Positions 903 through 62,352 of a stretch of DNA of 64,000 nt are shown here, one piece after another (positions within the stretch are counted from its first letter, which is position 1; each line of letters begins with the position of its first letter). Where the stretch lies: IMG/VR virus record IMGVR_UViG_3300037805_000525, positions 45,094-109,093 of that record; one strand, 5' to 3'. Under the pieces are notes generated by a model, which worked only from the letters and a program-made list of their open reading frames with translations, was not told where the DNA came from and did no database searches. Origin of the DNA: a virus. A program made the position numbers and the translations under genes.

Positions 903-3378
903 CGTCGATCTCCGCGATGTAGTCAGACATGAGGGACGTGCCGAGCGAAGAACTCGCCGCAGGCTCGCTGCCGTATGTACGCATTGCTGCAGCGAGCAGT
1001 GCCTCTACGGAGTCAGTGTCTGTGAGCGACGTGGGCTCCGTCAACCCGAACACGGACCACTCGAGCGCCATGAGTTTGGTGTGTACCCAGCTCAGGTTGG
1101 CTTGGTGGAGTGCGTTGGACAGGTCAGCGAGCTCCTGGGGTGCGGCGGCACTGTAGCTGGACGACGCGCTGGCTATGCCGTCGAAGATGAGCATGAGCGT
1201 GCTGCGTACATACGCCCAGGCATCCGGAGACACGCCGTTGAGTGGATGCTGCAGACCAGGGGCGTAGCGTTGGTCTGCTAGTAGCTTGCGAACGGTACGC
1301 AGTGTGCCGCGTAGGTAGCTGGCGGTTACCGGTGTGGTCGTGGGGCCAGCACCATAGATTGCCGCGCCTGCTTCTGCGTAGGCTGCCAGGGTGACCACGC
1401 CGCCCATGGACGAGCGAACCTCCGCCCATCCGCCGAGGGGGCCGACTGCGTAGTCGCCGGCGCGGATACGGTAGCGAGGACCCGACGCAGTGTATGAGTA
1501 GCGGGGCTGGGTGGCGAACGCCTCGTCGGGCAGTCCGAACTCAGGCCCAGGTCCTCCCCCGGGAACAAGCTCAAAGAGTTGGTTGGAGTCGATGACAAGC
1601 TCTGTGGTCTCCAGGGCGAAGGTGATGTCTACGCTGCCGGCCACGCCCAGTACGTCCAGAGGTAGGACGATAGGGGTGAGCAGCGTGACCTGGGTGGGGT
1701 TGGCGGAGACGACCTGGTGGTACCCGTCGTATGGGGTAAGGACGTGCAGGAACGCAGCTTGTGTTCCGTCGGCTACGTCAATGAGGCTCGCACCGGCTGC
1801 GGTGATGGTGGCTGCGGCAGGCGGGCTACGGTACTGCGTGTTCTGCGTAGGGACGATGTCTAGCGCAGCCGGGTTGGTAATGGTGAGGTCGTTGAACCAT
1901 ACGTCAACGCCGTAGCCCTCTACAGGCACGGTGGTGAGTAGGTCATTGAGCGTGGTGGGTGGGGTGATCCAAGTGACGCCATCTACTGCAGTGCTGAGCA
2001 CGGGAGTGGTACTGCCCATGGGGATACCCATACGAGCTGCAGAGCCTGCGGTGTCGTAGGTGAACAGCAGATTGCCGCCGGTGGTGTGCACACAGTCTAC
2101 CGAAGCCGTAAAGTTCGAAATCTCGGTTGCGAGTTCGGACAGGTTGTACTTCACCGGAGGGGCAAATATCACAGTGTGATAAATCGAATTACCTGCTGCG
2201 ACGGTGACTGTGTAGAAGGGTGACTCGTCGGTTACGAGGTACTTGCGGTAGCTGAAGTGGAACTGCGTGCCGACGGGCAGTTCTTGATCGGTGCCTGGCA
2301 CAGTGAGGTCAGCGTAGGCAATAGTGACCTTGCCGGACGTGTAGTCGATGCCGCTAGAAATGTCGAGCGGCCAACCACTTACGCTGACTAGGTTGCCGGT
2401 TCCGTCGTCCGTTATGTGGTCGTTGGCTACGTGCAGCACCAGGGAGCCCGGTACGACATGTTCTCGCAGCGTTCGAACGTACGGACCCTTCCCGCCAGGT
2501 GCGTTTATCGAGTGGATCCCACTAAACGGGGCAGCCAGGTCCGCACCGTAGACAGAGGTAGTGGTAGCCATCGCCCGGATGGCTGCGGGGGAGGAGATGG
2601 TCACCGTATTTCCCGGCTCGCCCGAATACTGCAACTCTGCGGAGTCGGTACTCAGGCTGTGGAGCGGAAACGTGCTCCCTTCCATCTTGAAGGGGCCGAC
2701 CGCAACCAGGTCTGTGCCCTTTGGGGCGTCTAGGTCTATGTCGACCGCGCTCTCTTCGACAACAGAGGCGGACACAGCGGCTATTGCGGACAAATCCTTG
2801 GTTGCGGTGCCGTCCGGGCGCACGTTAGCTCGTACAGCGTCGTCTACGCTCTGTACAACACGTCTGCGCGTAGCAAAGGCGACGTCTGCCGCCTCCCAGG
2901 CTGTACGAGAGCGTGTAAGCGCGTTCAGTGCAGTCTCGAACTCTACTAGTGCAAGCTGGATCGAGCGCACAGCATTTATCACAATGTGATAATCCACCTC
3001 GCTGGACGCGGCGGTGGACGAGGCGGACAGTTCGTTGAGAGCGCGCACTGCGCCGCTGCTGCCCTGGTCAAGGTGCAGCAGCGCGTTGTCCGCGGCGTCC
3101 ACGCTCTCTGTTGTCAGGGTCTGCGTAGGCGCTCTGCGGGTGGATATGAGCGTAAGGAGGTGTTCCCGCGCTGTACTGGACTTGGCGGCGAGTGTACGAA
3201 GGTATGTGCCGTAGATGGCGTAGTACCCGCATTGGTCGTACTGGAGTGTGCGTGAGCAGAGGTCTAGTGCAACCTCCAGTATCTCCGCGGCTGTCTTGCC
3301 TCGCATCGTTCCGAGATCTACGCTCGGGGACAACCCCTGAGCTAGTCCCGCGATGTAGGCCTCAGAATATCGAGGCAT
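895..3378 (-). CDS. Putative virion structural (baseplate/tail-associated) protein
   Basis: 827 aa; helical N- and C-termini around a T/V/G/P-rich beta region containing a DDGTGNL...IDYTSGKVTI motif seen in tail/baseplate proteins. Confidence 0.55.
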   Translation of the reverse strand: MPRYSEAYIAGLAQGLSPSVDLGTMRGKTAAEILEVALDLCSRTLQYDQCGYYAIYGTYLRTLAAKSSTAREHLLTLISTRRAPTQTLTTESVDAADNALLHLDQGSSGAVRALNELSASSTAASSEVDYHIVINAVRSIQLALVEFETALNALTRSRTAWEAADVAFATRRRVVQSVDDAVRANVRPDGTATKDLSAIAAVSASVVEESAVDIDLDAPKGTDLVAVGPFKMEGSTFPLHSLSTDSAELQYSGEPGNTVTISSPAAIRAMATTTSVYGADLAAPFSGIHSINAPGGKGPYVRTLREHVVPGSLVLHVANDHITDDGTGNLVSVSGWPLDISSGIDYTSGKVTIAYADLTVPGTDQELPVGTQFHFSYRKYLVTDESPFYTVTVAAGNSIYHTVIFAPPVKYNLSELATEISNFTASVDCVHTTGGNLLFTYDTAGSAARMGIPMGSTTPVLSTAVDGVTWITPPTTLNDLLTTVPVEGYGVDVWFNDLTITNPAALDIVPTQNTQYRSPPAAATITAAGASLIDVADGTQAAFLHVLTPYDGYHQVVSANPTQVTLLTPIVLPLDVLGVAGSVDITFALETTELVIDSNQLFELVPGGGPGPEFGLPDEAFATQPRYSYTASGPRYRIRAGDYAVGPLGGWAEVRSSMGGVVTLAAYAEAGAAIYGAGPTTTPVTASYLRGTLRTVRKLLADQRYAPGLQHPLNGVSPDAWAYVRSTLMLIFDGIASASSSYSAAAPQELADLSNALHQANLSWVHTKLMALEWSVFGLTEPTSLTDTDSVEALLAAAMRTYGSEPAASSSLGTSLMSDYIAEIDDA
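2167..2181. promoter_or_regulatory. Palindromic site 1, TATCACAGTGTGATA (intragenic)
   Basis: Perfect 7-1-7 palindrome, one of 13 copies. Confidence 0.85.
2977..2991. promoter_or_regulatory. Palindromic site 2, TATCACAATGTGATA (intragenic)
   Basis: Perfect arms with central A. Confidence 0.8.
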
Positions 3379-8545: not shown

Positions 8546-8560
8546 TATCACAGTGTGATA
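8546..8560. promoter_or_regulatory. Palindromic site 3, between the promoter motif and gene 8581
   Basis: Perfect TATCACAGTGTGATA, extended by GCGGA...TCCGC. Confidence 0.85.
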
Positions 8561-13065: not shown

Positions 13066-13080
13066 TATCACAGTGTGATA
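13066..13080. promoter_or_regulatory. Palindromic site 4
   Basis: Perfect TATCACAGTGTGATA, 6 bp from the 38-bp palindrome. Confidence 0.85.
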
Positions 13081-16982: not shown

Positions 16983-16997
16983 TATCACAGTGTGATA
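16983..16997. promoter_or_regulatory. Palindromic site 5
   Basis: Perfect TATCACAGTGTGATA, intergenic. Confidence 0.85.
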
Positions 16998-21668: not shown

Positions 21669-21683
21669 TATCACAGCGTGATA
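21669..21683. promoter_or_regulatory. Palindromic site 6, TATCACAGCGTGATA
   Basis: One-mismatch variant between convergent genes. Confidence 0.8.
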
Positions 21684-26206: not shown

Positions 26207-26221
26207 TATCACAGCGTGATA
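26207..26221. promoter_or_regulatory. Palindromic site 7, TATCACAGCGTGATA
   Basis: One-mismatch variant, intergenic. Confidence 0.8.
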
Positions 26222-30402: not shown

Positions 30403-30762
30403 CTAGCTCTTTCGGCGCTTCTTACGTGAACTGCCTCGGAGGACGATTGGTCCTTGAGCAAACACGTCGTTCAGGAACTTCTCGGCGTCGGCAACCTTCT
30501 TCTTCTCGAAGTCTCCGGACCCAGGAATGTAGTCCTCTCGAAGTACGGCACGGATACTGTTCACGTACTCTGTCGAGGATTCCGAGGTCACTAGGTTGCT
30601 TATCACGCTGTGATATTCGGTGCGCTGCTTCCGGTTAAAGATGTGAATCCAAATCAACTCAGCCAGCGAATCCCTCGCTGGGACTGGCAGCGCACCTGAC
30701 CGAATCAGCTCGTAGTAGAGGCAACCACGCGCCCACCCGATTGGATCACTTAGCTCATTTTT
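30403..30762 (-). CDS. Tail assembly chaperone C-terminal (gpT-like) segment, probably reached by -1 frameshift
   Basis: No good independent start; open in the -1 frame across GTA AAA ATG at the end of 30750..31529. Confidence 0.6.
   Translation of the reverse strand, partial: KNELSDPIGWARGCLYYELIRSGALPVPARDSLAELIWIHIFNRKQRTEYHSVISNLVTSESSTEYVNSIRAVLREDYIPGSGDFEKKKVADAEKFLNDVFAQGPIVLRGSSRKKRRKS
30601..30615. promoter_or_regulatory. Palindromic site 8, TATCACGCTGTGATA (intragenic)
   Basis: Reverse complement of the site 6/7 variant. Confidence 0.8.
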
Positions 30763-32609: not shown

Positions 32610-33040
32610 GCAAGGGCCTCGTGTGCGTGTACATGTGCGCACCACGTGCCCACGTGGTGCGCGCACGCGCTCCCACCCGCATTAAACACCCCACAAAACC
32701 CCTAAAGGGTTTTTGGGTGTGTTTACTTTTATTGGCGTAGTTTGGCTAGGTAACTTGGGCACAAACCTACTATCCCGAAAAGATGTGGGTAGACTGGCCT
32801 ACCGAATGCCTGGGCGGACGCATCGGCGCGTGGATGTATCGGCGTGTGTGGATGCATCCACACACGGGTGCATCCACGCCCGCACGAGGGAAACTCCTCG
32901 CAGGGGCCTTCCGCTTGCGCTTGCGCGCACTTAGCACGTGCCCCTATTTGCGGTGCAAATAGGAACCCGCGCTTCTTTTTTTTCTAGTCGGCTTCGCCTC
33001 CAAGACACCCGGCTGAAGCCCCGGAAACACAGGGATTTTT
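32610..33040 (+). other. Hairpin-dense non-coding region (candidate structured RNA or replication origin)
   Basis: Stems at 32637-32662, 32683-32725, 32828-32879 (24-bp perfect core, outer stem with G-U pairs) and 32944-32962; T8 run near 32976. Confidence 0.5.
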
Positions 33041-33042
33041 TA

Positions 33043-34176
33043 ATGCGAAAGATAGGCATTGTCGACGACCTGCTCAACAAGTGGCCAGAGCTGCACGCCA
33101 CACTCACGCAGACCCTATCGAACCTGGAGGGGCAGACTGCGATGTTCGATCTACTGCTATCCGCTCCCCAGGATATCGTGCTCCTGCCGGACAGTGAGCA
33201 GGGCGTGTTTTTCCAGGCGCGGCAGAAGCTGATCGGCGGCGTTGAGGACGGCCTTCGGATGTTCTTTTACGCCGATGGGACGTTCATAGACGACGCGTCG
33301 GAGGCGAAGTACGCGGTGCAGCAGGGGTGGGTCTACAGGTACTACCCAGTCGAAGGGGACCGCATCCTGGTCGAGGTTCCGTACCGCGAAATCGACAGCG
33401 ATCTGGCGCGGCACTTCTTCTATGGCCTGGCCTCGCTGAACGTGCAGGAGGGGCGAGGGGCGTACCACAAGCGTGTTACGTCAGTTCGGTACGCAGTGCA
33501 CAAGGTGACGCTCAGTATGTCGGACTTCAAGGAGTTCGCTAACCGGTGCGACGAACACCAATGGGACGTAGAGGATTTCGACGACGTCAAGGAGATCGTC
33601 GGGCAGGAGCTCGCTCACGCAGAGGCCGCAGTGGCACGGGCGGCGGACCACTTGGAGGACTTCAGGCGGATCGTCTCAGACGGTGCGGCCATGTCCGCGA
33701 TACACAACGAGGCGTTCAAGGTTGTGAACGTTCGGTCGGCCATGACCTCAGCGATGGCACACGCAAACGCACGAATCCGATCGCTCCCTGCTGGAGGGTT
33801 GCGGGCGCAGTACCAGCGCCAGATGGACGTGCTCAGTGAACGTGCGGCAGGTATTAAGGAGGTTAACCTGACGGCGATCGCTACGTCTGCGGTCGTCGAC
33901 CCAACAGCGCGGGCGGCCTCTCTGTACGCACCGCTGAAAGATGAGCTGGCCAGGCTCGCGCGTGCGTACCCGGTGCTGCGCGCGCTCACCGTCCACGAGG
34001 ACGATCACATAGAGGTTCGCAGCGCCACCGGGTCGGTGCACCTCAACGGAGACGGTTCGTCGAGGATCACGGGCACCTTGACGGACAACGTTAGGACGAG
34101 TACTAAGGCCCGCGCAACACGCATGCAAGGCATACGTGCGCAGCGCAAGAAGCGGCTCGAAGCCGCCAAAGACTAA
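33043..34176 (+). CDS. Hypothetical protein with coiled-coil middle
   Basis: 377 aa from ATG 33043 (MRKIGIVDD); the ORF-track extension upstream runs through hairpins. Confidence 0.75.
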   Translation: MRKIGIVDDLLNKWPELHATLTQTLSNLEGQTAMFDLLLSAPQDIVLLPDSEQGVFFQARQKLIGGVEDGLRMFFYADGTFIDDASEAKYAVQQGWVYRYYPVEGDRILVEVPYREIDSDLARHFFYGLASLNVQEGRGAYHKRVTSVRYAVHKVTLSMSDFKEFANRCDEHQWDVEDFDDVKEIVGQELAHAEAAVARAADHLEDFRRIVSDGAAMSAIHNEAFKVVNVRSAMTSAMAHANARIRSLPAGGLRAQYQRQMDVLSERAAGIKEVNLTAIATSAVVDPTARAASLYAPLKDELARLARAYPVLRALTVHEDDHIEVRSATGSVHLNGDGSSRITGTLTDNVRTSTKARATRMQGIRAQRKKRLEAAKD

Positions 34177-34188
34177 GCCCCCCTCTGC

Positions 34189-34215
34189 CGGAAATATCAC
34201 ACTGTGATATTTCCG
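34189..34215. promoter_or_regulatory. Palindromic site 9, extended 27-bp form, abutting the parB promoter
   Basis: CGGAAATATCACACTGTGATATTTCCG, 13-1-13 perfect inverted repeat. Confidence 0.9.
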
Positions 34216-34242
34216 CAGTTTCACGAAAATAGCTGGTATAAG
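34216..34242 (+). promoter_or_regulatory. Promoter-like motif CAGT-N15-GGTATAAG
   Basis: Upstream of parB. Confidence 0.65.
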
Positions 34243-34292
34243 CAATTTACTCCTAGGACACCAACAGCCCCTAGGACCTGGAGATCGCGCTC

Positions 34293-35543
34293 ATGTCCGA
34301 CGTTGAAATGACGACCGAAGAAGAAGCCGCCACCGAAATCACCGAGCTTGAGATCCCGCCCGAAGAAGAGCTGCTGCTCGTTGAGCACGGCACCGAGTGG
34401 ATCGCGCTGGGCGACATCGACACCGAAACCTTCGTGAACCCGCGCGGTGACGTGGGTGATTTGACCGAACTCAAGCAGTCCCTCCTTGCCTCTGGCGTGC
34501 TCGTCCCGCTGAGCGTGGTGATCATCAGCCCAACCGGCATCCTCGACGAGGACAACCAGGCGGAAGCCGTACTGCTGCTCGACGGTCAGCGCCGCCTCGC
34601 TGCGATGCGGGAGCTCCACGACGGCATCAACGAGCACAACGAGCGGGTTGCCCGCGATGGCGGCTTCGACGACCTCGACAGCACGTACCTGTTCGTGGTT
34701 GACGACGGCAAGGGCAACATGGTGCCCAACCCCGACGTGATCCCGCAGGCGTTCTCGGAGCAGTCCTGCAGCGTGAGCATCGCGCGCGCCTGGAGCGAGG
34801 AGCTCCAGAGCGAGATGCTCGTGCGCGCAGCGCTCATCAACGAGAAGCGTGAGTCGATGACCGACTACGACCGCTACTGCTACGTGTGCCGCCTGTCCGA
34901 GCTGGGCATGCGCCAGGTCGACATCGGCAAGAAGCTCACTCGCGCACAGGCGTGGGTGTCCGGCGCGGTCAGCGTCAAGAAGAACGGCTCCAGCGTGCTG
35001 ATCACCGCGATCAAGGAGGGCAAGGTCTCGCTCCGTCGTGGCTTCGAGATCGCCAAGCACAACAAGCGCGAGCAGGCTGCGCTCGTCGCAGGCAAGGCGC
35101 CGGCGAAGAAGTCGACCTTCCGCTCAAGCCGTGAGATCTACGCCGACGTCGTGGCGATGAGCAACCCCGAGGCCTACGTCGATGTTGACGAGGCGCATCG
35201 CCAGATGATGATTCGTACGTTCCGCTACATCATGGGCGATGCGGGCGTGACGCTCGAGCAGCTGATGTACCCGCCCGAGCCCGAGAACGATGTGGCCACG
35301 TCCACGAAGTCCCTGCTCGACCTGATCCCCGAGGCACGTCGTCGGGCGCCCAAGGCGAAGGTCACGCCCAAGAAGCCCGCAACGAAGAAGGCGCCGAAGA
35401 AGGCCGCGCCGAAGAAGGCCGCACCGAAGAAGGACGCACCGAAGAAGGTCGCCCCCAAGGCGAAGGCCCCCGCCAGCACTGCCAAGCCCGCGCGCCCTCG
35501 CCGGGCCGCGCGCCCTCGCCGGACCAAGCCCGCCGCTGAGTAA
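34293..35543 (+). CDS. parB: ParB/KorB-family CTPase with HTH and histone-H1-like Lys/Ala/Pro tail
   Basis: NPR...ELKQSL...GVLVPL.V and LLDGQRRLAA ParB motifs; NEKRESM; HTH MRQVDIGKKLTRAQAWVS; PKKAA repeats. Confidence 0.85.
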   Translation: MSDVEMTTEEEAATEITELEIPPEEELLLVEHGTEWIALGDIDTETFVNPRGDVGDLTELKQSLLASGVLVPLSVVIISPTGILDEDNQAEAVLLLDGQRRLAAMRELHDGINEHNERVARDGGFDDLDSTYLFVVDDGKGNMVPNPDVIPQAFSEQSCSVSIARAWSEELQSEMLVRAALINEKRESMTDYDRYCYVCRLSELGMRQVDIGKKLTRAQAWVSGAVSVKKNGSSVLITAIKEGKVSLRRGFEIAKHNKREQAALVAGKAPAKKSTFRSSREIYADVVAMSNPEAYVDVDEAHRQMMIRTFRYIMGDAGVTLEQLMYPPEPENDVATSTKSLLDLIPEARRRAPKAKVTPKKPATKKAPKKAAPKKAAPKKDAPKKVAPKAKAPASTAKPARPRRAARPRRTKPAAE

Positions 35544-35566
35544 GGCCTCGGCAACCACCTAGAAGG

Positions 35567-35602
35567 GGCCGCGATTCTCACGAGTCGCGGCCTTTTTTTT
35601 TT
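35567..35602 (+). terminator. Intrinsic terminator after parB
   Basis: GGCCGCGATTC-TCAC-GAGTCGCGGCC followed by T10. Confidence 0.9.
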
Positions 35603-35630
35603 GCCAAATTTTAGAGGACGAAAGTGGAGC

Positions 35631-37316
35631 ATGGACGCCAGACTCGAACTACGTAACCGCCTGCGGGCGATTCACCCACTCATCGCAATCCAAACCCTGG
35701 AAGAGGAGCGGACGATACTGGAGATCGTACGCATGCTCGAGCAGGAGGCCGCCGGACTCGAGGAGGCGCGTGCGTACGACATCTTCCAGTGGGACGTGAT
35801 CAACGCACTACGCCCTATCCAGTCGGTAACGCCCGCACTGCTTCCGGGTAAGAAGAAAGACGTGCGTCCACTACTCGATATCGTAGACCGCGCTATCTCC
35901 ACTGAGTACGCCGGACATCTGGTCATCTTTGTGAAGGACGCCTACGAGATCTTCATCGCCCCCACCACGGCGACCTCGCTGCGGCGCGTGCTCAAGACAA
36001 TGGTCAACCGTGACCCCGAGCGAAAGCTGTACCTCACGGTCATCCTGCTGGACCACACGATGCCAGCGCACCCGACACTTGAAGAGGACATGGTCGCGAT
36101 CGAGTGGCCGTTGCCCACACGTGAGGAGCTCGGTGAGTGCTTCTCATCGGAGGCGCTACTCTCGCTGGTTGGCGACGAGCTGCGTGAAGGCCTCGCGTTT
36201 TTCGATGACGATGTCAAGGCGGGCAGCGAGTGCGAATCTGCGCTGGAGCACATTCAGAACCTCGCGGATGCGGCGCAAGGGCTCAAGATGTCCGAGGCCA
36301 AGCACGCGTTCGTGCTGGCGTTCGGGTCGGAGGCGGACCTCGGCGGTGTGTCCCCGCGGCATATCGTCAAGGCGAAGGAGCAGCTGATTGGCCGCAGTGG
36401 TCTTCTGACGTTCCACCAGCCTGAGGGGACGTTGGCGGACGTTGGTGGCCTGGACCTGCTGAAGGGTTGGCTGCGCGAGCGGCGGCGCGCGTTCGGCCCG
36501 GACGCCGCAGCCTTCGGACTCCCCTCGCCAAAGGCTGTACTCCTGGTGGGCCCGCCGGGTACAGGCAAGAGCATCGTCCCGCGACTTGTAGGCGCTGAGT
36601 GGGGCATGCCCGTTCTGCAGCTAGACATGGGGCAGCTGATGAACTCCATGCTCGGGCAGTCCGAGGCCAACTTGCGTGACGCGCTCCGAACTGCTGAGGC
36701 GGCTGCGCCGGCAATCCTGTGGTTCGACGAGATCGAGAAGGCGATAGGCACGGGTGGCGACCGAGACGGCGGCACCAGCGGACGAATACTTGCTACCTGG
36801 CTCACCTGGATGGCCGAGAAGGAGGCGCCGGTGTTTGTCATCGCGAGCGCCAACGACCCCTTGAAGCTCCCCGCGGAGGTGACCCGCGTCGGCCGATTTG
36901 ATCGGACGTTCTACGTTGGGTTCCCGAATACGAAGGAGCGCGCAGAGATTTTCGCAGTACACTTGCGAAAACGTGGCCGGGACCCGGACGACTTCAACCT
37001 GCAGCTTCTGGCAAGCCGCTCTGACGGATTCAGCGGCGCTGAGATTGAGGGCGCTATTATTGGCGCGCTCTTCAAAGCGTTTGACCGGAATGCGCCCGAC
37101 GTGGAAATGGTCGACCTACTTGACGAGTGCGCGGGACTTACCCCACTGAGCGTGTCAAACGCGGAACAGCTCAGGCCTATGATCGAGTGGGCGGAGAGCA
37201 ACGCGAAGCACGCAAGTGTCCACGACACACCGGCTACAGTGGCGTCCGGTGGGCGCGGTCGTAGCCGCGTTGTCTCGCGCCGAAACCGGCTGGCGATGAA
37301 CAAAAAGATCGGCTAG
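35631..37316 (+). CDS. Ycf46-like AAA+ ATPase
   Basis: DVGGLDLLKGWL, Walker A GPPGTGKS, Walker B LWFDEIEK, SAN sensor, R.GRFD finger; degenerate N-terminal AAA domain. Confidence 0.9.
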   Translation: MDARLELRNRLRAIHPLIAIQTLEEERTILEIVRMLEQEAAGLEEARAYDIFQWDVINALRPIQSVTPALLPGKKKDVRPLLDIVDRAISTEYAGHLVIFVKDAYEIFIAPTTATSLRRVLKTMVNRDPERKLYLTVILLDHTMPAHPTLEEDMVAIEWPLPTREELGECFSSEALLSLVGDELREGLAFFDDDVKAGSECESALEHIQNLADAAQGLKMSEAKHAFVLAFGSEADLGGVSPRHIVKAKEQLIGRSGLLTFHQPEGTLADVGGLDLLKGWLRERRRAFGPDAAAFGLPSPKAVLLVGPPGTGKSIVPRLVGAEWGMPVLQLDMGQLMNSMLGQSEANLRDALRTAEAAAPAILWFDEIEKAIGTGGDRDGGTSGRILATWLTWMAEKEAPVFVIASANDPLKLPAEVTRVGRFDRTFYVGFPNTKERAEIFAVHLRKRGRDPDDFNLQLLASRSDGFSGAEIEGAIIGALFKAFDRNAPDVEMVDLLDECAGLTPLSVSNAEQLRPMIEWAESNAKHASVHDTPATVASGGRGRSRVVSRRNRLAMNKKIG

Positions 37317-37318
37317 CA

Positions 37319-38236
37319 ATGCGCAGACGTCTATGCGGGATCCCGTCGCTCGACGCACACGGCGGGCTGTCACCCGGCGTCGTAGAGCTCTACGGTGCTG
37401 CGGATGACTTCATGGATGAGACCGCGTGGTACCTAGTAGAGGCACATGACGGGCCGTGCGCCTGGGTGGCGGCCGCGGATTCGGATACCACCGGGATCTC
37501 GCGCACGGATGTGGCACACATACGGCCGGTTACTAGCGAGGCCGCCATCGAGGCCACAGACTTACTCCTGGGAGTTACTGGGATGTTGGTCGTGGTCGAC
37601 CGGATGACGGCGCTACCGCCACACGCATACATGCAGCAGCTGGAAGTGTTGGACAGGTACGAAGCGCAGATCAAACTGCTGTCGCACGCAATGATCATCT
37701 GGCGTGCGTCAGCTGAGGCGCACGGGTCCACGCTCATCCTGATCAATGAGCTGCGCTACTCCAGGGACAACGGAATTCGACCGTTCCTACCCGCCGCGAC
37801 AGCCGGGCGTACGTGCGCGCGGATACGCTGTAGGCGTGGGACGACCGAGGCACGCTACGAGCTCCCGTACATGTTGCGGGTGCATGTCGACTGGCAGGCC
37901 CACGGTACATTCGGGTCGTCTGAGCTAGAGTTCTTCGCAGGGAGGGTGCCATCACCAGGGTGGCAGTACTACAGGATACTGATCCCGCTTCCTTGCGTAG
38001 AGCGCAGGGGCACGTATTCGTCGTTCACGTTCGACGGGGAATCCGTGCGGTACGGACCAGGTAAGCTGGACATGGCCGACCAGATGGCCGCACACGGAAC
38101 ATTCGACAACATTCGTGAGTCTTGCCTGACTCACCTAAGGGAGCTTCATGAAATTCCGAATCACTATAACCAAGGCCGGCGACGTAAAGCAGGACATCGA
38201 AAACGTATCCGGGCAAAGCTGCCAAGGCGAAGGTGA
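37319..38236 (+). CDS. Degenerate RecA-like protein (probably ATPase-inactive)
   Basis: CGIPSLD..GGL..GVVELYG, LVVVD and TLILINELR RecA motifs, but the Walker A GKT is absent (YGAADDFMD). Confidence 0.65.
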   Translation: MRRRLCGIPSLDAHGGLSPGVVELYGAADDFMDETAWYLVEAHDGPCAWVAAADSDTTGISRTDVAHIRPVTSEAAIEATDLLLGVTGMLVVVDRMTALPPHAYMQQLEVLDRYEAQIKLLSHAMIIWRASAEAHGSTLILINELRYSRDNGIRPFLPAATAGRTCARIRCRRGTTEARYELPYMLRVHVDWQAHGTFGSSELEFFAGRVPSPGWQYYRILIPLPCVERRGTYSSFTFDGESVRYGPGKLDMADQMAAHGTFDNIRESCLTHLRELHEIPNHYNQGRRRKAGHRKRIRAKLPRRR

Positions 38237-38348
38237 GCGCTTCGCCAACCACATGATCGGTACTACGGGCCACATCGTGGACGAGACGCTCAAGCCCGAG
38301 TTCTACTTGGCTGAGGAAGAGGACGTCACGCAGGGCACGCTGGTATGA
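38148..38348 (+). CDS. DUF2997-like protein
   Basis: ITITKAGDV...ENVSGQSC...LKPEFY; AAGGGAG SD. Confidence 0.8.
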   Translation: MKFRITITKAGDVKQDIENVSGQSCQGEGERFANHMIGTTGHIVDETLKPEFYLAEEEDVTQGTLV

Positions 38349-38926
38349 CACCGGGCCCTAGCATCGCCGAGGTCAACGTCCCGGCGGCAGGTGCGCTCGG
38401 CGAGGGCGTGATCGCGACGGTACATTTTGACGGCTGCACCCTCGCGTGCGCTGGGTGCTGGAATAAACACCTTTGGCCGCACAAGGCGTGCGACGAGTCC
38501 CTGGGGTCTGTCGCTAAGGCCGTGGCTGCGAAGCTGGCTTGTACACGCCTTGACGGCATTGTATGGAGCGGTGGTGAGCCTCTCCAGTACCCCCACTTCC
38601 CAGCATTCTGCCAGCAGGTGCTAATCGAGCTCAACCGGCCTAAGGTGTGGACGTTTCTGTACACGGGCTACGCGGGCTGCGAGCTGCCGCGCATCCGCTT
38701 CAGCGACTCTGTCCTGCGGATGTGTGGTGTGGACGGGCTGTGTGGCGGGAGGTACAACCCAGAGAAGGTAGAAGGCGCACGCTGGCCAGCAACTTCAACG
38801 AACCAGGAGGTTGTGTGGCTCACCGACAGAGCGCGTGGGAAGCTGCGCAAGACCTCAGTGACCCGCATCACCGCAGCCACAACAACACAGCTCGGGGCTG
38901 ACGGCCCCCTGACGGAGGTACTATGA
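38345..38926 (+). CDS. Radical SAM protein (NrdG/activase-like)
   Basis: GCTLACAGCWN (CxxxCxxC), SGGEP, YTGY, STNQ. Confidence 0.85.
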   Translation: MTPGPSIAEVNVPAAGALGEGVIATVHFDGCTLACAGCWNKHLWPHKACDESLGSVAKAVAAKLACTRLDGIVWSGGEPLQYPHFPAFCQQVLIELNRPKVWTFLYTGYAGCELPRIRFSDSVLRMCGVDGLCGGRYNPEKVEGARWPATSTNQEVVWLTDRARGKLRKTSVTRITAATTTQLGADGPLTEVL

Positions 38927-39369
38927 GCCACCAGGTTAAGCTAGTCACGGCAATCGACGACATTGACGACCTTGAGACGATGCTCGAGGAAGTGTTCGGG
39001 CTGAAGTGCGTTCGCAACGGCATCGGCAAGGGCTACTACAAGAAGGATGTGGTCAACTACGACCTGATGCTGGTGTCCGACTTTAAGCGGGACTTCGGGT
39101 TCAGCGCGGTGGACGGGAAGATGCAGCTGCAGCTGGACAGCATGGACCATGGCCGCCTGGACGAGCTGCTGCGCGGTAAGGTCGACGAGGCGTACGCGCC
39201 CGTCGCACAGGTTGCCACCCGGTACAAGCCAATAGAGATGCTCACCATGTGCTACCAGGCGCACAAAGCAGTCACGTACCACGAGCAGCTCGGCCGGAGC
39301 ATTGAGATGTCAGTGCTTGGCGGCGTCCTGGAGATCGTTGCTGAGGACGCGGGGGCCGTTCGAATCTGA
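38923..39369 (+). CDS. DUF1257/Ycf35-like protein
   Basis: MSH...T.I.D...L...L, GY, DFGF pattern; sits in the AAA/DUF2997 cassette. Confidence 0.7.
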   Translation: MSHQVKLVTAIDDIDDLETMLEEVFGLKCVRNGIGKGYYKKDVVNYDLMLVSDFKRDFGFSAVDGKMQLQLDSMDHGRLDELLRGKVDEAYAPVAQVATRYKPIEMLTMCYQAHKAVTYHEQLGRSIEMSVLGGVLEIVAEDAGAVRI

Positions 39370-39424: not shown

Positions 39425-39439
39425 TATCACACTGTGATA
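39425..39439. promoter_or_regulatory. Palindromic site 10 (extends to AATTATCACACTGTGATAATT)
   Basis: Perfect palindrome upstream of the lysis-like genes. Confidence 0.85.
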
Positions 39440-47591: not shown

Positions 47592-48472
47592 GTGGACCCC
47601 CTACGCGTGAATGCCGCGGCCAGCGTGTCCGTGTAGTTTGTTGTGCCCAGATCCTGCGGGGAAGTCATGGCACGCACAGGCGTCCCAAACCAGTCGTCCG
47701 CGTCCACGTTGATAGGCACCTTGTACTCGATGTTACTTGTGTCCAACTGGACCACGGTAACCTCCTGGCGAACAACGAACCTGCCGAGCGCCGGGCGGTT
47801 TTGGTTGCCACCTACGAGCCAACGCTTGTTCTCCGCCTCGACCACCAGGTCCCCGTCCCGAAGTAGCGGGAAGTGCCCGAACTTCATCATCGACTGCCGG
47901 ATGGGGATTTTACCTTCAGGCTGTGTCAGCGAAACGGCGCGTGGTTCTTCAATCTGTGCGTAGACGACGACTGGGCGGTAGAACCCCAGCGCGTATCCGG
48001 TGTTGAAGCAGGATACGCAGTTCGACTTCGTACGCTTCATACGTAGCGTGTTGAAGCACTCCATGCATCGGGCACCGGAATGTCTGCGCTGGAACAGCAG
48101 GACCCGCCGCCCCTTGTACTCCCGCAGCACGACCTGCTCGGTGCGCGCGATCTCCAACGCGGGTAGTGTCGCTTCGGCCTCCAGCGAGGCCCCATTATCA
48201 CAGTGTGATAATTCGCTGAGCCCGTTCCCTCGGATCTCAATCCGGTAGAAGTAGTCGCGGTGCGTGCCGTAGCGCCCCACGCTTGTGTCGAGGAAGGTGT
48301 TCATGGAGCTCTGCAGCGGCCCGGCGATTTCGACGTAATCACTGTGCGGGTTCCGCGAGCGGAGCACATAGAACTGGAAGTCGTCGACACCGGGGTTGTA
48401 GTCGCGCAGCTCCCAACTTATGTGTAGCGACCGAACAGACATCGATCGCACGAGTACCTTTGAGAACTCCAT
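47588..48472 (-). CDS. Putative neck/head-closure protein with Fn3-like N-terminus and Zn finger
   Basis: LHISW...FYVLRS...YFYRI; CMEC...CVSCFNTG; PLLRDGDLVVE. Confidence 0.65.
   Translation of the reverse strand: MEFSKVLVRSMSVRSLHISWELRDYNPGVDDFQFYVLRSRNPHSDYVEIAGPLQSSMNTFLDTSVGRYGTHRDYFYRIEIRGNGLSELSHCDNGASLEAEATLPALEIARTEQVVLREYKGRRVLLFQRRHSGARCMECFNTLRMKRTKSNCVSCFNTGYALGFYRPVVVYAQIEEPRAVSLTQPEGKIPIRQSMMKFGHFPLLRDGDLVVEAENKRWLVGGNQNRPALGRFVVRQEVTVVQLDTSNIEYKVPINVDADDWFGTPVRAMTSPQDLGTTNYTDTLAAAFTRRGST
48196..48210. promoter_or_regulatory. Palindromic site 11 (intragenic)
   Basis: Perfect ATTATCACAGTGTGATAAT inside the neck gene. Confidence 0.85.
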
Positions 48473-50711: not shown

Positions 50712-51914
50712 TCAGAAGTCGGTCACGGTGCCGACGGTGCCGCCCTTGCTGATCAGGTTGTTGAGCGCGCCGAACTCGCTCTCGGCCAACGGGGCGAACC
50801 GCGCCTGCATGGCGGTGTTCGCGCCGCCGGCGACTGTCTCAGCGCTGCCCGCGTAGAGCTCGAGCTTGCGCACGCCGGCGATGTTGCCGATGTACGTGGC
50901 GATGATCTTGTTGGCCTCGAAGGTGAAGCGGTCCAGCTCCTTGTCCACGTAGGACTTGAGCGGACGCAGCGTGGCGCAGCCACCAACAAACGAGCGATCG
51001 GCGAATGCGAAGATGTTGCCGGGACGAAGCACGCCAGTGTTCGTGGTCGTGGCGTACTTGATGCCTTGCACGGTCGAGTACTTGTACCCCTTGACCGTGG
51101 TCTCCTTGGCGATCTCATCACCGACTTCACTGGTGGACCAGTTGTTCATGTCGAGGATGTCGGTCGCCGAGATGCCGATCACCTTGCACTTGAGGTGGCT
51201 CTTGCGAGGACCGCCGGTGCCCGGGAACAGCTTGAGCAGCTTGGTGATGTCGTCCTTCTGCAGCGGGAAGAGTTGGTCGTCGACCACGCCTGCGGCAGCG
51301 CCCGCGGCGCCCGCGCCAGCTGTCAGCGCGTCAGTGCCCTTGACCTTGCCGATCTCAGGTACGCCGGCGGCCACGTTGAACGCGGTGAACGCGGTGTTCA
51401 CCGTGAGCGCAGTGCTGTACGCAATGCCCTGCTCTTCCTTCTGGTTGATGATGGTCGCGCCTTCGCACAGGACCACCTGGCGGCGGTCGTAGACCTCCAT
51501 CATGGCGTCGAGGGCCCGCTCACGGACCATTTTTTCCATGTCGTAGCGGTACGCCATCATGTCCAGTTCGGACTGCTGCAGGCGCTCGGTCTGCAGCTTG
51601 TAGAACGGGGTGAGGAACCGAGGGCTCGTGTAGTAGCGAACCTGGGGCTCGCCGCGGAACGACGCCGACATCGCGCGGGCCTCAGGACCACTCTCGACCA
51701 TGTAGGCGAGGGTGTCGTGCTCGGTGGAGCGCTGAATCTCGGGGTCCTTCTCACTGACCTTCTGCTCGGGCCAGATCTTCGCGAAGAGGCTGTCGCTCTT
51801 CTCTCGGTCGCGGATGAACGCCGTCATCTTGCTCGCGACCTTGGTCTTGCCGTCGGTCGTGCCGAGGAGATCCAAAAGCTCGTTGAAGTGCGCGGCGGTG
51901 AAGGATGTACTCAT
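50712..51914 (-). CDS. Major capsid protein
   Basis: 400 aa; strong codon bias; follows protease/scaffold/decoration genes; own terminator; FIRD..K..S...KI.P pattern. Confidence 0.8.
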
Positions 51915-54319: not shown

Positions 54320-54334
54320 TATCACAGTGTGATA
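54320..54334. promoter_or_regulatory. Palindromic site 12
   Basis: Perfect TATCACAGTGTGATA upstream of the scaffold gene. Confidence 0.85.
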
Positions 54335-58742: not shown

Positions 58743-58757
58743 TATCACACTGTGATA
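58743..58757. promoter_or_regulatory. Palindromic site 13 (extends to AATTATCACACTGTGATAATT)
   Basis: Perfect palindrome between terL and the next head gene. Confidence 0.85.
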
Positions 58758-62096: not shown

Positions 62097-62245
62097 CGGT
62101 GGTGTCTCCGCGGTTGGTGCCACTAGGGTAGCACGCGGAAAGACGGGTACGGTGGGGTGCCGTCTAGTTGCCTGCCATGAGGGGCATGGTGCGCGCGCTG
62201 CTCACGTACGGGCGCGGTGCGCTATTCTGTTGCGCCGATGGCTTC

Positions 62246-62352
62246 TAGGCAGGATTGGGCCGCGTTCGGGCTACCGGCGCTGGGCTGCGAGCGCTCGGCG
62301 AGAGACGCCTGCTTCCTCGCCGCCGTCGCTCGAGCTGCCGTAGGGGTTGCGC
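62246..62352. repeat. 107-bp direct repeat, copy 1
   Basis: Identical to 63894..64000. Confidence 0.95.

What the first reader, a model, noticed from the sequence alone, without database searches (positions are those of the whole stretch)
34189..35602. Stand-alone ParB CTPase fused to a histone-H1-like tail, no adjacent ParA, probably autoregulated
Seen: intact GxRRxxA (DGQRRLAA) motif, an HTH, an acidic insertion in the N-terminal domain and a roughly 65-aa PKKAA/PARPRR tail. The gene has its own promoter motif, a strong terminator, and codon bias by eye like that of the capsid gene. The best palindrome touches the upstream promoter element. No Walker-type ParA was recognised in the window. 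Known: PAKK-type tails (histone H1, HupB, AlgP) compact DNA non-specifically. Inference: a site-loaded sliding clamp carrying its own condensing tail, acting as a phage nucleoid or condensate protein rather than a classical partition protein.
Basis: partly seen in the sequence, partly recalled or inferred. Interest (0 to 1): 0.75.

Follow-up and report, generated by a model that had tools for sequence, protein, structure and literature searches.

The report
Partner-less phage ParB with histone-like tail
A large uncultured marine phage encodes a very divergent, probably abundant relative of the bacterial DNA clamp ParB, with no ParA motor and a lysine/alanine/proline-rich tail; it is the best but unproven candidate for reading a palindrome repeated about every 4.4 kb along the phage genome.

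Summary
Window 34293-35543 (+) encodes a 416-aa protein with DGQRRLAA, an ENxxR-type box, a ParB-type helix-turn-helix, an acidic insertion of about 46-50 aa and a 70-aa K/A/P/R tail. It has its own promoter motif and a strong terminator (-26.8 kcal/mol plus T10). Its GC3 is 2.7 sd above the genome mean.

Curated models miss it: no Pfam hit, and TIGR00180 below its cut-off. A family profile (Spo0J 6e-19, Noc 1e-18) and a predicted structure (KorB Z 12.1; ParB-CDP Z 11.7, rmsd 1.9 A) place it in the ParB/Noc/KorB superfamily.

Twelve relatives share the whole architecture, tail included. None has a ParA-binding motif. No ParA was found in the 109-kb record, in a related 50-kb contig, or in a complete 180-kb relative.

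All seven CTP-binding residues of Caulobacter ParB are kept. The three hydrolysis-linked ones are replaced, so "CTPase" is unproven.

The upstream palindrome is one of 24 copies (plus 9 on the related contig), evenly spaced (CV 0.40, P <= 5e-5). That suggests a KorB-like genome-wide reader or organiser, but binding is inferred only. The scan has noted similar orphan-ParB/palindrome-lattice pairs in other phages. Verdict: a new variant of a known kind.

The parts
34189..34215 (.). Perfect 13+1+13 palindrome CGGAAATATCACA-C-TGTGATATTTCCG. It is the longest-armed member of the genome-wide TATCACA-N-TGTGATA family. It lies 13 nt after the stop codon of the upstream gene and abuts the promoter. It is the candidate loading or operator site.
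   Evidence: As RNA it would fold at -19.2 kcal/mol with no U-tract. Protein binding is not tested.
34213..34242 (+). Promoter-like element: CCGCAG (-35-like, overlapping the last 3 nt of the palindrome), a spacer, then GGTATAAG (34235-34242).
   Evidence: It belongs to a family of 24 G(C/T)ATAAG sites, 23 on the + strand. Most are intergenic and lie upstream of + strand genes, often with GCGCAAA-like sequence about 22 nt upstream. It does not match the sigma-70 consensus. Function is inferred.
34280..34283 (+). Shine-Dalgarno GGAG, 9 nt before the ATG.
34293..35543 (+). CDS of the 416-aa ParB/Noc/KorB-like protein.
34293..34379 (+). Acidic N-terminal peptide, residues 1-29. The first 40 residues have net charge -13. 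It is predicted disordered and has no ParA-binding (L/F/I)G(K/R)G(L/F/I) motif.
34380..34853 (+). ParB/Srx-type nucleotide-binding N-terminal domain, residues 30-187. It carries N49-P-R51, S63, G68, G98-Q-R100-R101 and N183-x-x-R186.
   Evidence: Versus ParB-CDP 6sdk: Z 11.7, rmsd 1.9 A, 93 aligned, 28% identity. PadC Z 11.8. Profile match to Spo0J and Noc. Invariant columns.
34605..34772 (+). Family-specific acidic insertion between the GxRR and ENxxR boxes, about residues 105-160. It carries invariant H115, N116 and Y132.
   Evidence: It is shorter in the low-GC relatives.
34854..35117 (+). ParB-type helix-turn-helix DNA-binding domain, residues 188-275.
   Evidence: Noc DNA-binding domain with NBS Z 8.7, ParB DNA-binding domain with parS Z 7.9, KorB DNA-binding domain with OB Z 7.1. 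PF17762 HTH_ParB is hit by 7 of 13 family members.
35118..35330 (+). Small helical C-terminal domain, residues 276-346. It is a possible dimerisation domain of unassigned fold.
   Evidence: pLDDT 79 when folded alone. Best PDB match is Z 5.9 and non-specific.
35331..35540 (+). K/A/P/R-rich disordered tail, residues 347-416. It holds PKKAA-type repeats and ends in PARPRRAARPRR.
   Evidence: (15-nt DNA periodicity). It is conserved in composition in all 13 family members.
35561..35602 (+). Intrinsic terminator: a 17-pair stem with a 4-nt loop, followed by T10.
   Evidence: -26.8 kcal/mol, z -6.0
2167..2181 (.). Lattice palindrome copy, inside a CDS.
2977..2991 (.). Lattice palindrome copy, inside a CDS, centre A/T.
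8546..8560 (.). Lattice palindrome copy.
13066..13080 (.). Lattice palindrome copy.
16983..16997 (.). Lattice palindrome copy.
21669..21683 (.). Lattice palindrome copy (variant TATCACGCTGTGATA, reverse orientation).
26207..26221 (.). Lattice palindrome copy (same variant).
30601..30615 (.). Lattice palindrome copy (same variant).
39425..39439 (.). Lattice palindrome copy, just upstream of the gene that starts at 39434.
48196..48210 (.). Lattice palindrome copy, inside a CDS.
54320..54334 (.). Lattice palindrome copy.
58743..58757 (.). Lattice palindrome copy.

Best explanation
Shown here: the gene encodes a very divergent, ParA-less member of the ParB/Noc/KorB superfamily. It has a nucleotide-binding ParB/Srx domain with a family-specific acidic insert, a ParB-type HTH, a small helical C-domain and a roughly 70-aa lysine/alanine/proline-rich tail. 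It belongs to a small family confined to one clade of large uncultured phages, where it keeps a fixed position upstream of an AAA+ ATPase, RecA-like and radical-SAM gene set. It is a separate transcription unit, and its codon bias suggests high expression.

Inferred mechanism: dimers recognise the palindrome ATTATCACA-C-TGTGATAAT through the HTH. The copy with the longest arms abuts the gene's own -35-like element, so the protein would repress itself. The other 23 copies in the 109-kb record, plus 9 on a related contig, lie about every 4.4 kb. They would act as loading or operator sites from which nucleotide-bound protein occupies the phage chromosome. The basic tail would add non-specific DNA affinity and so stabilise, bridge or compact the bound DNA. 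Functionally this is closest to KorB of plasmid RK2, a global ParB-family regulator with 12 dispersed operators. It differs in having a histone-H1-like tail instead of a ParA partner.

The three residues linked to CTP hydrolysis in Caulobacter ParB are replaced here. Turnover may therefore be slow or different, which would favour long-lived DNA occupancy. KorB also lacks the GERR glutamate and still hydrolyses CTP, so this point stays open.
For: Fold and family:
- Family profile against PDB: Spo0J 5.7e-19, Noc 1e-18, H. pylori ParB 2e-16.
- Foldseek: Noc, KorB and ParB-CDP at E about 2e-5.
- VIA-align: KorB-KorA-DNA Z 12.1 (186 aa), ParB-CDP Z 11.7 at rmsd 1.9 A, PadC Z 11.8.
- PHROG ParB-like families at 7e-8 and 7e-5. 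TIGR00180 at 2e-6.

Nucleotide pocket: equivalents of the Caulobacter class I binding residues R60, S74, G79, R103, R104, N136 and R139 are present as R51, S63, G68, R100, R101, N183 and R186. Five of these seven (R51, G68, R101, N183, R186) are invariant in the family; S63 is kept in 7 of 13 members and R100 in 10 of 13 (residue classes from PMC8367383).

No ParA:
- None in the own record, the related contig G001, or the complete relative G005.
- ParA-binding motif in 0 of 13 members.

Tail: 57-103 aa, 56-86% K/R/A/P, net positive in all 13 members. Some relatives' tails hit histone-H1-like models (HC2 4e-4, hist_H1_lk_Burk 4e-5, Rv3852 family 4e-10).

Expression proxies: own promoter-family member, strong terminator, GC3 +2.7 sd.

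Sites:
- 24 copies against 0.04 expected in the window scan, and 9 more in G001.
- Spacing CV 0.40 against 0.96 for random placement, P <= 5e-5. The result also holds when placement is restricted to gene boundaries.
- A consistent asymmetry gives each site a polarity.
- The palindrome abuts the -35-like element in five promoters, including this one.

Comparative data:
- The two other long-tailed relatives examined (L002, L018) each have their own dispersed palindrome with the same arm-N1-arm design, and a copy upstream of the ParB-like gene.
- Their HTH helices resemble each other and differ from ours, in step with the motifs.
- No other recognisable HTH protein was found among 72 small phage proteins.

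KorB precedent: 12 sites on RK2, sliding clamp and repressor (PMC11790492).
Against: - No experiment or computation here shows that this protein binds the palindrome. The link rests on adjacency, on the lack of other candidates in a genome where most proteins are unrecognisable (Pfam also misses this protein), and on a covariation that is confounded with phylogeny.
- In the complete low-GC relative G005, the only repeat near the orthologue is a local cluster of six TGACA-N10-TGTCA sites within 1.35 kb, with no genome-wide lattice. L002 has a local cluster of a second palindrome as well. The ancestral role may therefore be local.
- The palindrome arms contain TGTGATAAT, an extended -10-like sequence. 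The lattice could be a promoter, terminator or processing element read by RNA polymerase or another factor.
- The equivalents of Q58, E102 and E135 are N49, Q99 and I182, so NTP hydrolysis and even nucleotide identity are uncertain. The fold can bind ATP or GTP (PMC12704722).
- The C-terminal domain could not be assigned to the ParB dimerisation fold.
Confidence: 0.45

Rival explanations
1. The protein acts only locally. It binds the site or sites next to its own gene, as an autoregulator or as an origin- or centromere-proximal factor. The genome-wide palindromes are read by something else (RNA polymerase or a sigma-like factor, an unidentified repressor, or an RNA-level hairpin). The tail merely raises local DNA affinity.
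For: - In the complete relative G005, all six TGACA-N10-TGTCA repeats lie within 1.35 kb, flanking the gene upstream of the ParB-like gene.
- L002 has four copies of a 20-bp palindrome plus 31-bp tandem repeats in the 680-bp region upstream of its ParB-like gene.
- Low-GC relatives have the protein but no lattice.
- The palindrome arms contain an extended -10-like TGTGATAAT. Site polarity mostly follows the local direction of transcription.
Against: - In this genome there is no separate local repeat cluster. The only site beside the gene is a lattice-type palindrome, and it has the longest arms of all.
- Four lattice copies lie inside CDSs, and the spacing is far more even than gene boundaries would give. 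That fits an organising role better than a purely promoter or terminator role.
Confidence: 0.3
2. The protein is the DNA-targeting subunit of a module with the downstream AAA+ ATPase, and perhaps also the RecA-like and radical-SAM genes. It would recruit or be remodelled by the ATPase on phage DNA, for replication, recombination, DNA modification or anti-defence. The AAA+ protein would take the place of ParA as the energy-using partner.
For: - The gene order ParB-like, AAA+, then g106 (radical SAM here) is conserved in L002, L018 and L022; the RecA-like gene is detected only in L002.
- In L022 the ParB-like stop codon overlaps the AAA+ start codon (coordinates).
- The AAA+ protein belongs to a phage family of unknown function, phrog_8638, at 2e-113.
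Against: - In this phage a strong terminator separates the two genes.
- Their codon bias differs (GC3 0.87 against 0.75).
- No interaction was tested. Synteny alone is weak evidence.
- This reading is compatible with the best explanation rather than exclusive of it.
Confidence: 0.15
3. It is an ordinary partition protein for a plasmid-like prophage. It would use a host ParA or an unrecognised phage motor encoded in the missing part of the genome.
For: The record is only about 61% complete. ParB family membership is clear. A palindromic site lies next to the gene.
Against: - No ParA in 109 kb, in the 50-kb related contig, or in a 100%-complete 180-kb relative.
- No ParA-binding motif in any family member. 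The N-terminus is strongly acidic instead.
- The sites are dispersed rather than clustered.
- The codon bias matches that of the most biased genes.
Confidence: 0.05

Closest known systems
KorB of IncP-1 plasmid RK2 (ParB-family CTP-dependent sliding clamp and global repressor)
   Same: - ParB/Srx N-domain plus HTH. It is the best structural match over both domains (8qa9_B, Z 12.1, 186 aa).
- It lacks the glutamate of GERR, as KorB does (PMC11790492).
- Many dispersed candidate sites at a similar density. KorB has 12 sites (title of ref. 20 in PMC11790492); the RK2 size of about 60 kb, giving roughly one site per 5 kb, is from my own knowledge. Here there are 24 in 109 kb.
- One site sits at the protein's own promoter.
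- From my own knowledge, the KorB operator is also a palindrome around a single central base.
   Different: - Sequence similarity to KorB is marginal (profile E 0.04; the KorB Pfam domain is hit by 2 of 13 members at E 0.034). By sequence it is nearer to chromosomal ParB and Noc.
- No IncC/ParA partner and no N-terminal ParA-interacting peptide.
- No identified KorA-like clamp lock.
- A 46-50-aa acidic insert in the N-domain.
- A 70-aa H1-like tail.
[quoted passage not shown]
Chromosomal ParB/Spo0J and Noc (type Ia ParB family)
   Same: - Best sequence-profile matches: Spo0J 5.7e-19, Noc 1e-18. TIGR04285 (Noc) is hit by 10 of 13 members.
- All seven CTP-binding (class I) residues are kept.
- The ENxxR box, HTH and G-K-I-T motif are conserved.
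   Different: - Below every curated cut-off.
- No ParA, no LG(R/K)GL motif, and no Noc-type N-terminal membrane helix (the N-terminus is acidic).
- The Q58, E102 and E135 equivalents are replaced.
- Insert in the N-domain.
- The C-terminal fold is unassigned.
- Candidate sites are spread over the whole genome rather than clustered near an origin.
Orphan ParB-CTPase-fold proteins of phages (survey in PMC12704722)
   Same: A stand-alone ParB-fold protein on a phage without ParA. The survey describes such proteins as common and mostly uncharacterised.
   Different: - The survey describes PF02195 (Pfam) domain fusions and lists TIGR, PFAM and KOFAM ParB models in its methods. This protein has no Pfam hit and falls below the TIGR00180 cut-off, so it may have been missed.
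- The text of that paper does not mention histone-like or lysine-rich tails (0 occurrences).
Histone-H1-like K/A/P tails of bacterial DNA-binding proteins (AlgP, Hc1/Hc2, mycobacterial HupB and Ku PAKKA repeats)
   Same: Composition and repeat style (PKKAA-type). The tails of some family members hit HC2, Burkholderia H1-like and Rv3852-family models. PAKKA tails modulate DNA binding in M. smegmatis Ku (PMC3553676, abstract).
   Different: The resemblance is compositional only and does not imply homology. Here the tail is attached to a sequence-specific ParB-type protein. Our own tail hits none of these models at the thresholds used.
Stoperators of Cluster A mycobacteriophages (from my own knowledge)
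   Same: Two dozen short sites dispersed through a phage genome, mostly intergenic, with an orientation that tracks transcription.
   Different: Stoperators are asymmetric 13-14-mers bound by the immunity repressor, not by a ParB-family protein. No even spacing has been reported for them. Not tested here.

Membership tests
ParB/Noc/KorB superfamily (ParB/Srx N-domain + ParB HTH) | ParB/Srx nucleotide-binding fold | tested here: met
   AF2 model has pLDDT about 90 over residues 30-270. Versus 6sdk: Z 11.7, rmsd 1.9 A, 93 aa, 28% identity. PadC Z 11.8, sulfiredoxin Z 10.1. Foldseek probability 1.00.
ParB/Noc/KorB superfamily (ParB/Srx N-domain + ParB HTH) | Score above the curated model cut-offs (Pfam PF02195, TIGR00180) | tested here: not met
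   No Pfam hit at E <= 0.1. PF02195 is not found even at E <= 10. TIGR00180 scores 27.7 bits against a cut-off of 58.45. This is a matter of annotation sensitivity, not a biological criterion. The family profile reaches Spo0J at 5.7e-19.
ParB/Noc/KorB superfamily (ParB/Srx N-domain + ParB HTH) | GxRRxxA (box II) and ENxxR (box III) motifs | tested here: met
   G98-Q-R-R-L-A-A104, with N183 and R186. G98, R101, N183 and R186 are invariant in 13 members. The E of ENxxR is I182 here.
ParB/Noc/KorB superfamily (ParB/Srx N-domain + ParB HTH) | ParB-type HTH DNA-binding domain | tested here: met
   Profile alignment. Noc, ParB and KorB DNA-binding domains give Z 8.7, 7.9 and 7.1. PF17762 is hit by 7 of 13 members.
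ParB CTPase (CTP-dependent clamp) | Residues needed for CTP binding (Caulobacter R60, S74, G79, R103, R104, N136, R139) | tested here: met
   R51, S63, G68, R100, R101, N183 and R186, by alignment (residue list from PMC8367383). Actual binding is not testable here.
ParB CTPase (CTP-dependent clamp) | Residues linked to CTP hydrolysis (Caulobacter Q58, E102, E135) | tested here: not met
   N49 (invariant N), Q99 (never E in 13 members) and I182 (E in 10 of 13, but not in the three closest). KorB has Ala at the E102 position and still hydrolyses CTP, so activity cannot be excluded.
ParB CTPase (CTP-dependent clamp) | CTP binding or hydrolysis, and N-domain gate closure on DNA | not testable with these tools
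   Needs biochemistry.
ParB CTPase (CTP-dependent clamp) | C-terminal dimerisation domain | tested here: inconclusive
   Residues 276-346 fold as a small helical domain (pLDDT 79). The best PDB match is Z 5.9 and non-specific.
ParABS partition system | Cognate ParA (Walker-type ATPase) encoded with ParB | tested here: not met
   PF13614 and PF01656 are absent from the 109-kb record. PF13614 is absent from G001 and from the complete 180-kb relative G005. The controls ring in 14 of 14 genomes. The own genome is only about 61% complete.
ParABS partition system | N-terminal ParA-interaction motif (L/F/I)G(K/R)G(L/F/I) | tested here: not met
   0 of 13 family members (motif as defined in PMC12704722).
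ParABS partition system | Palindromic site or sites next to parB | tested here: met
   34189-34215, 78 nt upstream of the start codon. Whether the protein binds it is not testable here.
KorB-type global regulator | Many dispersed operators, including promoter-proximal ones | tested here: inconclusive
   24 plus 9 palindromes, five of them abutting -35-like elements. Their reader is unidentified.
KorB-type global regulator | Sequence membership (KorB domain PF08535) | tested here: not met
   Not hit by this protein. Hit by 2 of 13 relatives at E 0.034. The profile against KorB PDB chains gives E 0.035-0.042.
KorB-type global regulator | KorA-like clamp-locking partner | not tested
   No search was made. 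PF16509 KORA appears once, at E 0.017, within a family member's own HTH, which is not meaningful.
Noc (nucleoid occlusion protein) | N-terminal amphipathic membrane-targeting helix | tested here: not met
   Residues 1-29 are strongly acidic (the first 40 have net charge -13) and are predicted disordered. The Noc feature itself is taken from the literature (title of ref. 28).

The most novel reading that the evidence does not exclude
A phage-encoded chromatin-like system. An evenly spaced lattice of polar palindromes, about every 4.4 kb over the whole genome of roughly 160 kb, serves as loading sites for an abundant, ParA-independent ParB clamp. Its hydrolysis-linked residues are naturally replaced, so it may be long-lived on DNA. 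Its histone-H1-like tail coats, bridges or silences the entire phage chromosome. This would be a new use of the ParB switch for genome-wide organisation, timing of transcription or protection of viral DNA. The scan's earlier notes suggest it recurs in several unrelated uncultured phages.
Probability: 0.3. Interest if true: 0.85.

Novelty: new variant of a known kind. Interest (0 to 1): 0.6.

Why it matters
ParB-CTPase clamps are known mainly from chromosome and plasmid segregation. KorB and Noc are the few examples put to other uses. Orphan ParB-fold proteins are frequent in phages, but almost none has a known role.

This family offers a clean test case for four reasons:
- It has no ParA.
- It keeps a full set of nucleotide-binding residues but has altered hydrolysis-linked residues.
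- Its histone-like tail is conserved across the family.
- The same genome carries a statistically even lattice of palindromes, one of which sits on the gene's own promoter.

If the protein reads the lattice, it would show that phages organise or regulate a whole chromosome of 100-180 kb with a ParB-type switch. It would also give a natural experiment on what CTP hydrolysis and non-specific DNA-binding tails contribute to spreading and compaction. If it does not, the lattice remains an unexplained genome-wide signal that needs another reader.

Tried and rejected
- Close relatives in cultured phages: none by tblastn or megablast.
- The search for homologous proteins with the full protein returned only the protein itself. 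The low-complexity tail probably swamped the word index. The exhaustive HMMER search without the tail found the family.
- The search for related loci: alignment A1 was unusable. P0002, P0004 and P0009 are not in viral contigs. P0009 was found once in metagenome contigs.
The contigs of the closest relatives (P0002, 38% identity; P0003, 34%) could therefore not be examined for their palindromes.
- Complex prediction on two copies of residues 25-348: no verdict. This is not evidence either way.
- The look-up of sequencing runs: no RNA holder listed. Only seawater DNA metagenomes hold the stretch.
- Rfam and tRNA scans of the window: nothing.
- C-terminal domain folded alone and searched against 48,161 chains: nothing above Z 5.9.
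- Upstream gene (33043-34173): no Pfam, PHROG or Atlas lead.
- The 'capsid' identity of 50712-51914 and of other highly biased genes could not be confirmed. Only terminase, a sheath-like C-terminus and a weak protease hit were recognised.
- The consensus promoter/terminator scanner missed both real-looking signals.
- A first pattern for the G005 repeats had the wrong spacer and found nothing. The corrected pattern was run.
- Role as activator of a thymine dioxygenase (PMC13229309): considered and set aside, because those ParBs lack a DNA-binding domain. I did not search the genome for a dioxygenase.
- 'Naturally hydrolysis-dead clamp' was considered as a firm claim. It was downgraded because KorB lacks the same glutamate and is still an active CTPase.
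- The upstream palindrome as a plain intrinsic terminator of the preceding gene: the hairpin is stable (-19.2 kcal/mol) but has no U-tract. This is kept only as a minor possibility.


Full report
**1. What is there.** The window is the right-hand 64 kb of a 109,093-bp IMG/VR virus record, estimated to be 61% complete. The ORF at 34293-35543 (+) encodes 416 aa, and GGAG lies 9 nt before its ATG. The protein is strongly dipolar. Its first 40 residues have net charge -13. The last 71 residues, counted from the conserved Pro346, are 20 A, 18 K, 14 P and 9 R, with net charge +24. Upstream lies a perfect 13+1+13 palindrome at 34189-34215. Its last three bases overlap a -35-like CCGCAG, which is followed by GGTATAAG at 34235-34242. 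Downstream is a 17-pair hairpin plus T10 (-26.8 kcal/mol, z = -6). GC3 is 0.873, or 0.879 without the tail. The genome mean is 0.736 with sd 0.051. I could not verify that ORF's identity.

**2. What the protein is.** Curated libraries barely see it. Pfam gives nothing. PF02195 is not found even at E <= 10. TIGR00180 scores 27.7 bits against a cut-off of 58.45. Two PHROG 'ParB-like' families match residues 34-109 at 7e-8 and 7e-5.

An exhaustive HMMER search of 1.84 billion representatives, run without the tail, found only 33 proteins at E <= 1e-3. Twelve are full-length relatives at 21-38% identity and share the whole architecture. A profile of these 13 sequences matches solved Spo0J (5.7e-19), Noc (1e-18) and H. 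pylori ParB (2e-16) in two blocks. The first block runs to GxRRxxA. The second starts at ENxxR and covers the HTH.

An AlphaFold2 model has pLDDT of about 90 for residues 30-270, with the tail disordered. By VIA-align it matches:
- the KorB-KorA-DNA complex at Z 12.1 over 186 residues;
- ParB-CDP at Z 11.7 (rmsd 1.9 A, 28% identity over the N-domain);
- PadC at Z 11.8;
- the DNA-binding domains of Noc, ParB and KorB at Z 8.7, 7.9 and 7.1.

Foldseek agrees, and BFVD returns many phage 'Spo0J/ParB' models. Between the two conserved boxes lies an acidic insertion of about 46-50 aa, which carries family-invariant H115, N116 and Y132. Residues 276-346 form a small helical domain with no recognisable relative.

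**3. Nucleotide pocket.** I used the alanine scan of Caulobacter ParB as the reference (PMC8367383). All seven residues whose loss abolishes CTP binding (R60, S74, G79, R103, R104, N136, R139) have equivalents here: R51, S63, G68, R100, R101, N183 and R186. Five of these seven (R51, G68, R101, N183, R186) are invariant in the family; S63 is kept in 7 of 13 members and R100 in 10 of 13. The three residues linked to hydrolysis are replaced. Q58 is N49, which is invariant. E102 is Q99, and this position is never Glu in the family. E135 is I182. In Caulobacter, E102A gives a 'clamp-locked' protein that stays on DNA. However, KorB naturally has Ala at that position and is still an operator-stimulated CTPase (PMC11790492), and the fold can bind ATP or GTP in other lineages (PMC12704722). 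Nucleotide binding is therefore likely. 'CTPase' is not established.

**4. It really stands alone.** AAA_31 and CbiA models find nothing in the 109-kb record. The controls ring in 14 of 14 genomes. A 50.6-kb IMG/VR contig, G001, overlaps the right end of the record at 99% identity over its first 136 bp and carries the same palindrome. It has no ParA either. A related phage with a 100%-complete 180-kb genome, G005, has the orthologue in the same gene order and also has no ParA. None of the 13 family members has the ParA-binding motif.

**5. The tail.** All 13 members end in a tail of 57-103 aa that is 56-86% K/R/A/P, net positive, and begins after a conserved Pro-Glu. In some relatives the tail hits histone-H1-like models. 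More distant orthologues in phages of about 50% GC (L020, L022, L023, L024) are about 305 aa long and end in a short KRKRRIR-type patch. The long tail is thus an elaboration of an ancestral basic C-terminus, not a chance fusion.

**6. Genomic context.** The gene order ParB-like, AAA+ ATPase (phrog_8638), a NrdG-like radical-SAM gene, then g112, g113 and a giant sheath-related protein (g114) is conserved in L002, L018 and L022. A weak RecA-like gene follows the AAA+ gene here and in L002. In L022 the ParB-like stop codon overlaps the AAA+ start codon. The stretch occurs in seawater metagenomes from several studies. Most proteins of the phage have no PHROG or Pfam hit.

**7. The palindrome is a genome-wide lattice.**
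- TATCACA-N-TGTGATA occurs 13 times in the window, against 0.04 expected. It occurs 24 times in the 109-kb record and 9 more times in G001.
- The consensus is ATTATCACA-C-TGTGATAAT.
- The centre base and a recurrent A-to-G variant on one arm give each site a polarity. The polarity mostly follows the local direction of transcription.
- The gaps average 4.2 kb with CV 0.40. Random placement gives CV 0.96 (P = 5e-5), and random choice among gene boundaries gives 0.92 (0 of 20,000 trials as even).
- Seven of the 24 centres fell inside called ORFs. Those at window 2167, 2977 and 48196 lie deep inside long coding regions.
- A separate promoter family, GCGCAAA-like sequence followed by GGYATAAG, heads the + strand genes. 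It has 24 sites, 23 of them on the + strand.
- In five promoters, including this gene's, the palindrome directly abuts the -35-like element.

**8. Does the ParB-like protein read the lattice?**

For:
- The copy with the longest arms sits on its promoter.
- It is the only recognisable sequence-specific DNA-binding protein. Pfam finds only DHFR and NUDIX among 72 small proteins, although sensitivity in this genome is poor.
- L002 and L018, the two other long-tailed relatives I could inspect, each have their own dispersed AT-rich palindrome of the same arm-N1-arm design (TATTAAT-S-ATTAATA and TATTAAC-N-GTTAATA), with a copy upstream of the ParB-like gene.
- Their recognition helices resemble each other and differ from ours.
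- KorB provides a precedent, with 12 operators on RK2.

Against:
- The covariation is confounded with phylogeny.
- The low-GC relatives have the protein but no lattice.
- In complete G005, all six TGACA-N10-TGTCA repeats lie within 1.35 kb next to the gene.
- L002 also has a local cluster of a second palindrome.

I put the link at a little under one half.

**9. Mechanism proposed.** The protein would be a dimeric, nucleotide-gated ParB-type protein that recognises the palindrome. It would repress its own promoter. From the lattice sites it would occupy the phage chromosome, with the basic tail adding non-specific DNA affinity for stabilising, bridging or compacting DNA. High codon bias fits a protein needed in stoichiometric amounts. 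The steps shown here are fold, motifs, absence of ParA, conservation of the tail, the transcription-unit signals, and the existence and regularity of the sites. The inferred steps are site binding, nucleotide identity and turnover, dimerisation or clamp formation, spreading, and compaction by the tail.

**10. Comparison and novelty.** The protein belongs to the ParB/Noc/KorB superfamily by fold and motifs. It fails every curated cut-off. It is not a ParABS component, lacking both ParA and the ParA-binding motif. It is not a KorB family member by sequence, and it lacks Noc's membrane helix. It works most like KorB. Orphan phage ParBs are known as a class (PMC12704722). A conserved H1-like tail on one, and its pairing with an evenly spaced genome-wide palindrome, were not found in the literature searches. 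Earlier notes of this scan describe the same lattice in this genome. They also describe similar orphan-ParB/palindrome-lattice pairs in two other uncultured phages. Those are unchecked AI notes and not independent evidence, but they suggest the arrangement recurs. My verdict is a new variant of a known kind, with interest 0.6.

**11. Limits.** The homodimer prediction gave no verdict. No RNA data were available.

Noticed in passing
window 2167-58757 (13 sites); G000 7422-103850 (24 sites); G001 3725-46056 (9 sites): The palindrome TATCACA-N-TGTGATA forms an evenly spaced lattice (mean gap 4.2 kb, CV 0.40, P <= 5e-5). Each site has a built-in polarity that changes sign about four times along the 109 kb, mostly with the gene-strand blocks. 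Seven of the 24 site centres fall inside called ORFs (three in the window lie deep inside long CDSs).
   Followed up: yes
G000 7760-79336; window 8511, 12031, 18968, 26287, 31941, 34236: A non-sigma-70 promoter family: GCGCAAA-like sequence, about 14 nt, then GG(C/T)ATAAG. It has 24 sites, 23 on the + strand, and heads the + strand cassettes. The structural genes on the - strand lack it.
   Followed up: partly
window 32610-33042: A non-coding stretch of about 430 bp upstream of the 412-aa gene. It holds nested GC-rich palindromes (a 12+2+12 around CACGTG, and GTGTGGATGCATCCACAC flanked by GCGTGGATG / CATCCACGC) and a hairpin followed by a T-run. It is a candidate structured RNA or origin-like region. 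It has no Rfam hit.
   Followed up: partly
window 32938-34176: The annotated GTG start at 32938 lies inside the hairpin/T-run region. The ATG at 33043 (MRKIGIV...) looks like the real start, giving 377 aa. The protein has no Pfam, PHROG or Atlas lead. A weak homologue holds the same position in L022, flanked by the local repeat cluster.
   Followed up: partly
window 35601-39369; L002 10835-14162; L022 13257-16745: A conserved module sits downstream of the ParB-like gene: AAA+ ATPase (phrog_8638, 2e-113), a weak RecA-like protein (seen here and in L002) and a NrdG-like radical-SAM protein. In L022 the ParB-like stop codon overlaps the AAA+ start codon.
   Followed up: partly
L002 8900-9583: In a related phage, the 680 bp upstream of the ParB-like gene hold three 31-bp tandem repeats and four copies of the 20-bp palindrome TGTCAACAACGTTGTTGACA, together with the genome's dispersed palindrome. 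This is an iteron- or centromere-like region with no counterpart in our window.
   Followed up: partly
G005 43772-45109 (L022 17761-19098): In the complete 180-kb relative, all six TGACA-N10-TGTCA repeats of the genome lie within 1.35 kb. Three are between the ParB-like gene and the gene upstream, and three are beyond that gene. Adjacent repeats create TGTCA-C-TGACA junctions with the same arm-C-arm design as our palindrome.
   Followed up: partly
G001 1-136 vs window 62237-62372: A 50.6-kb IMG/VR contig shares 99% identity over its first 136 bp with the right end of the window and then diverges in mosaic fashion. It probably represents the missing part of a close relative's genome.
   Followed up: partly
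window 42579-46820 (-): A 1413-aa protein with very high GC3 (0.87). Only its last 180 residues or so match a tail-sheath PHROG (1.3e-7). It is conserved at 31-34% identity in all relatives.
   Followed up: no
window 34190-34196 and 34208-34214: The outer arms of the palindrome upstream of the ParB-like gene (GGAAATA ... TATTTCC) are, from memory, the two half-sites of the Bacillus Noc-binding site in swapped order. This is probably coincidence and was not tested.
   Followed up: no
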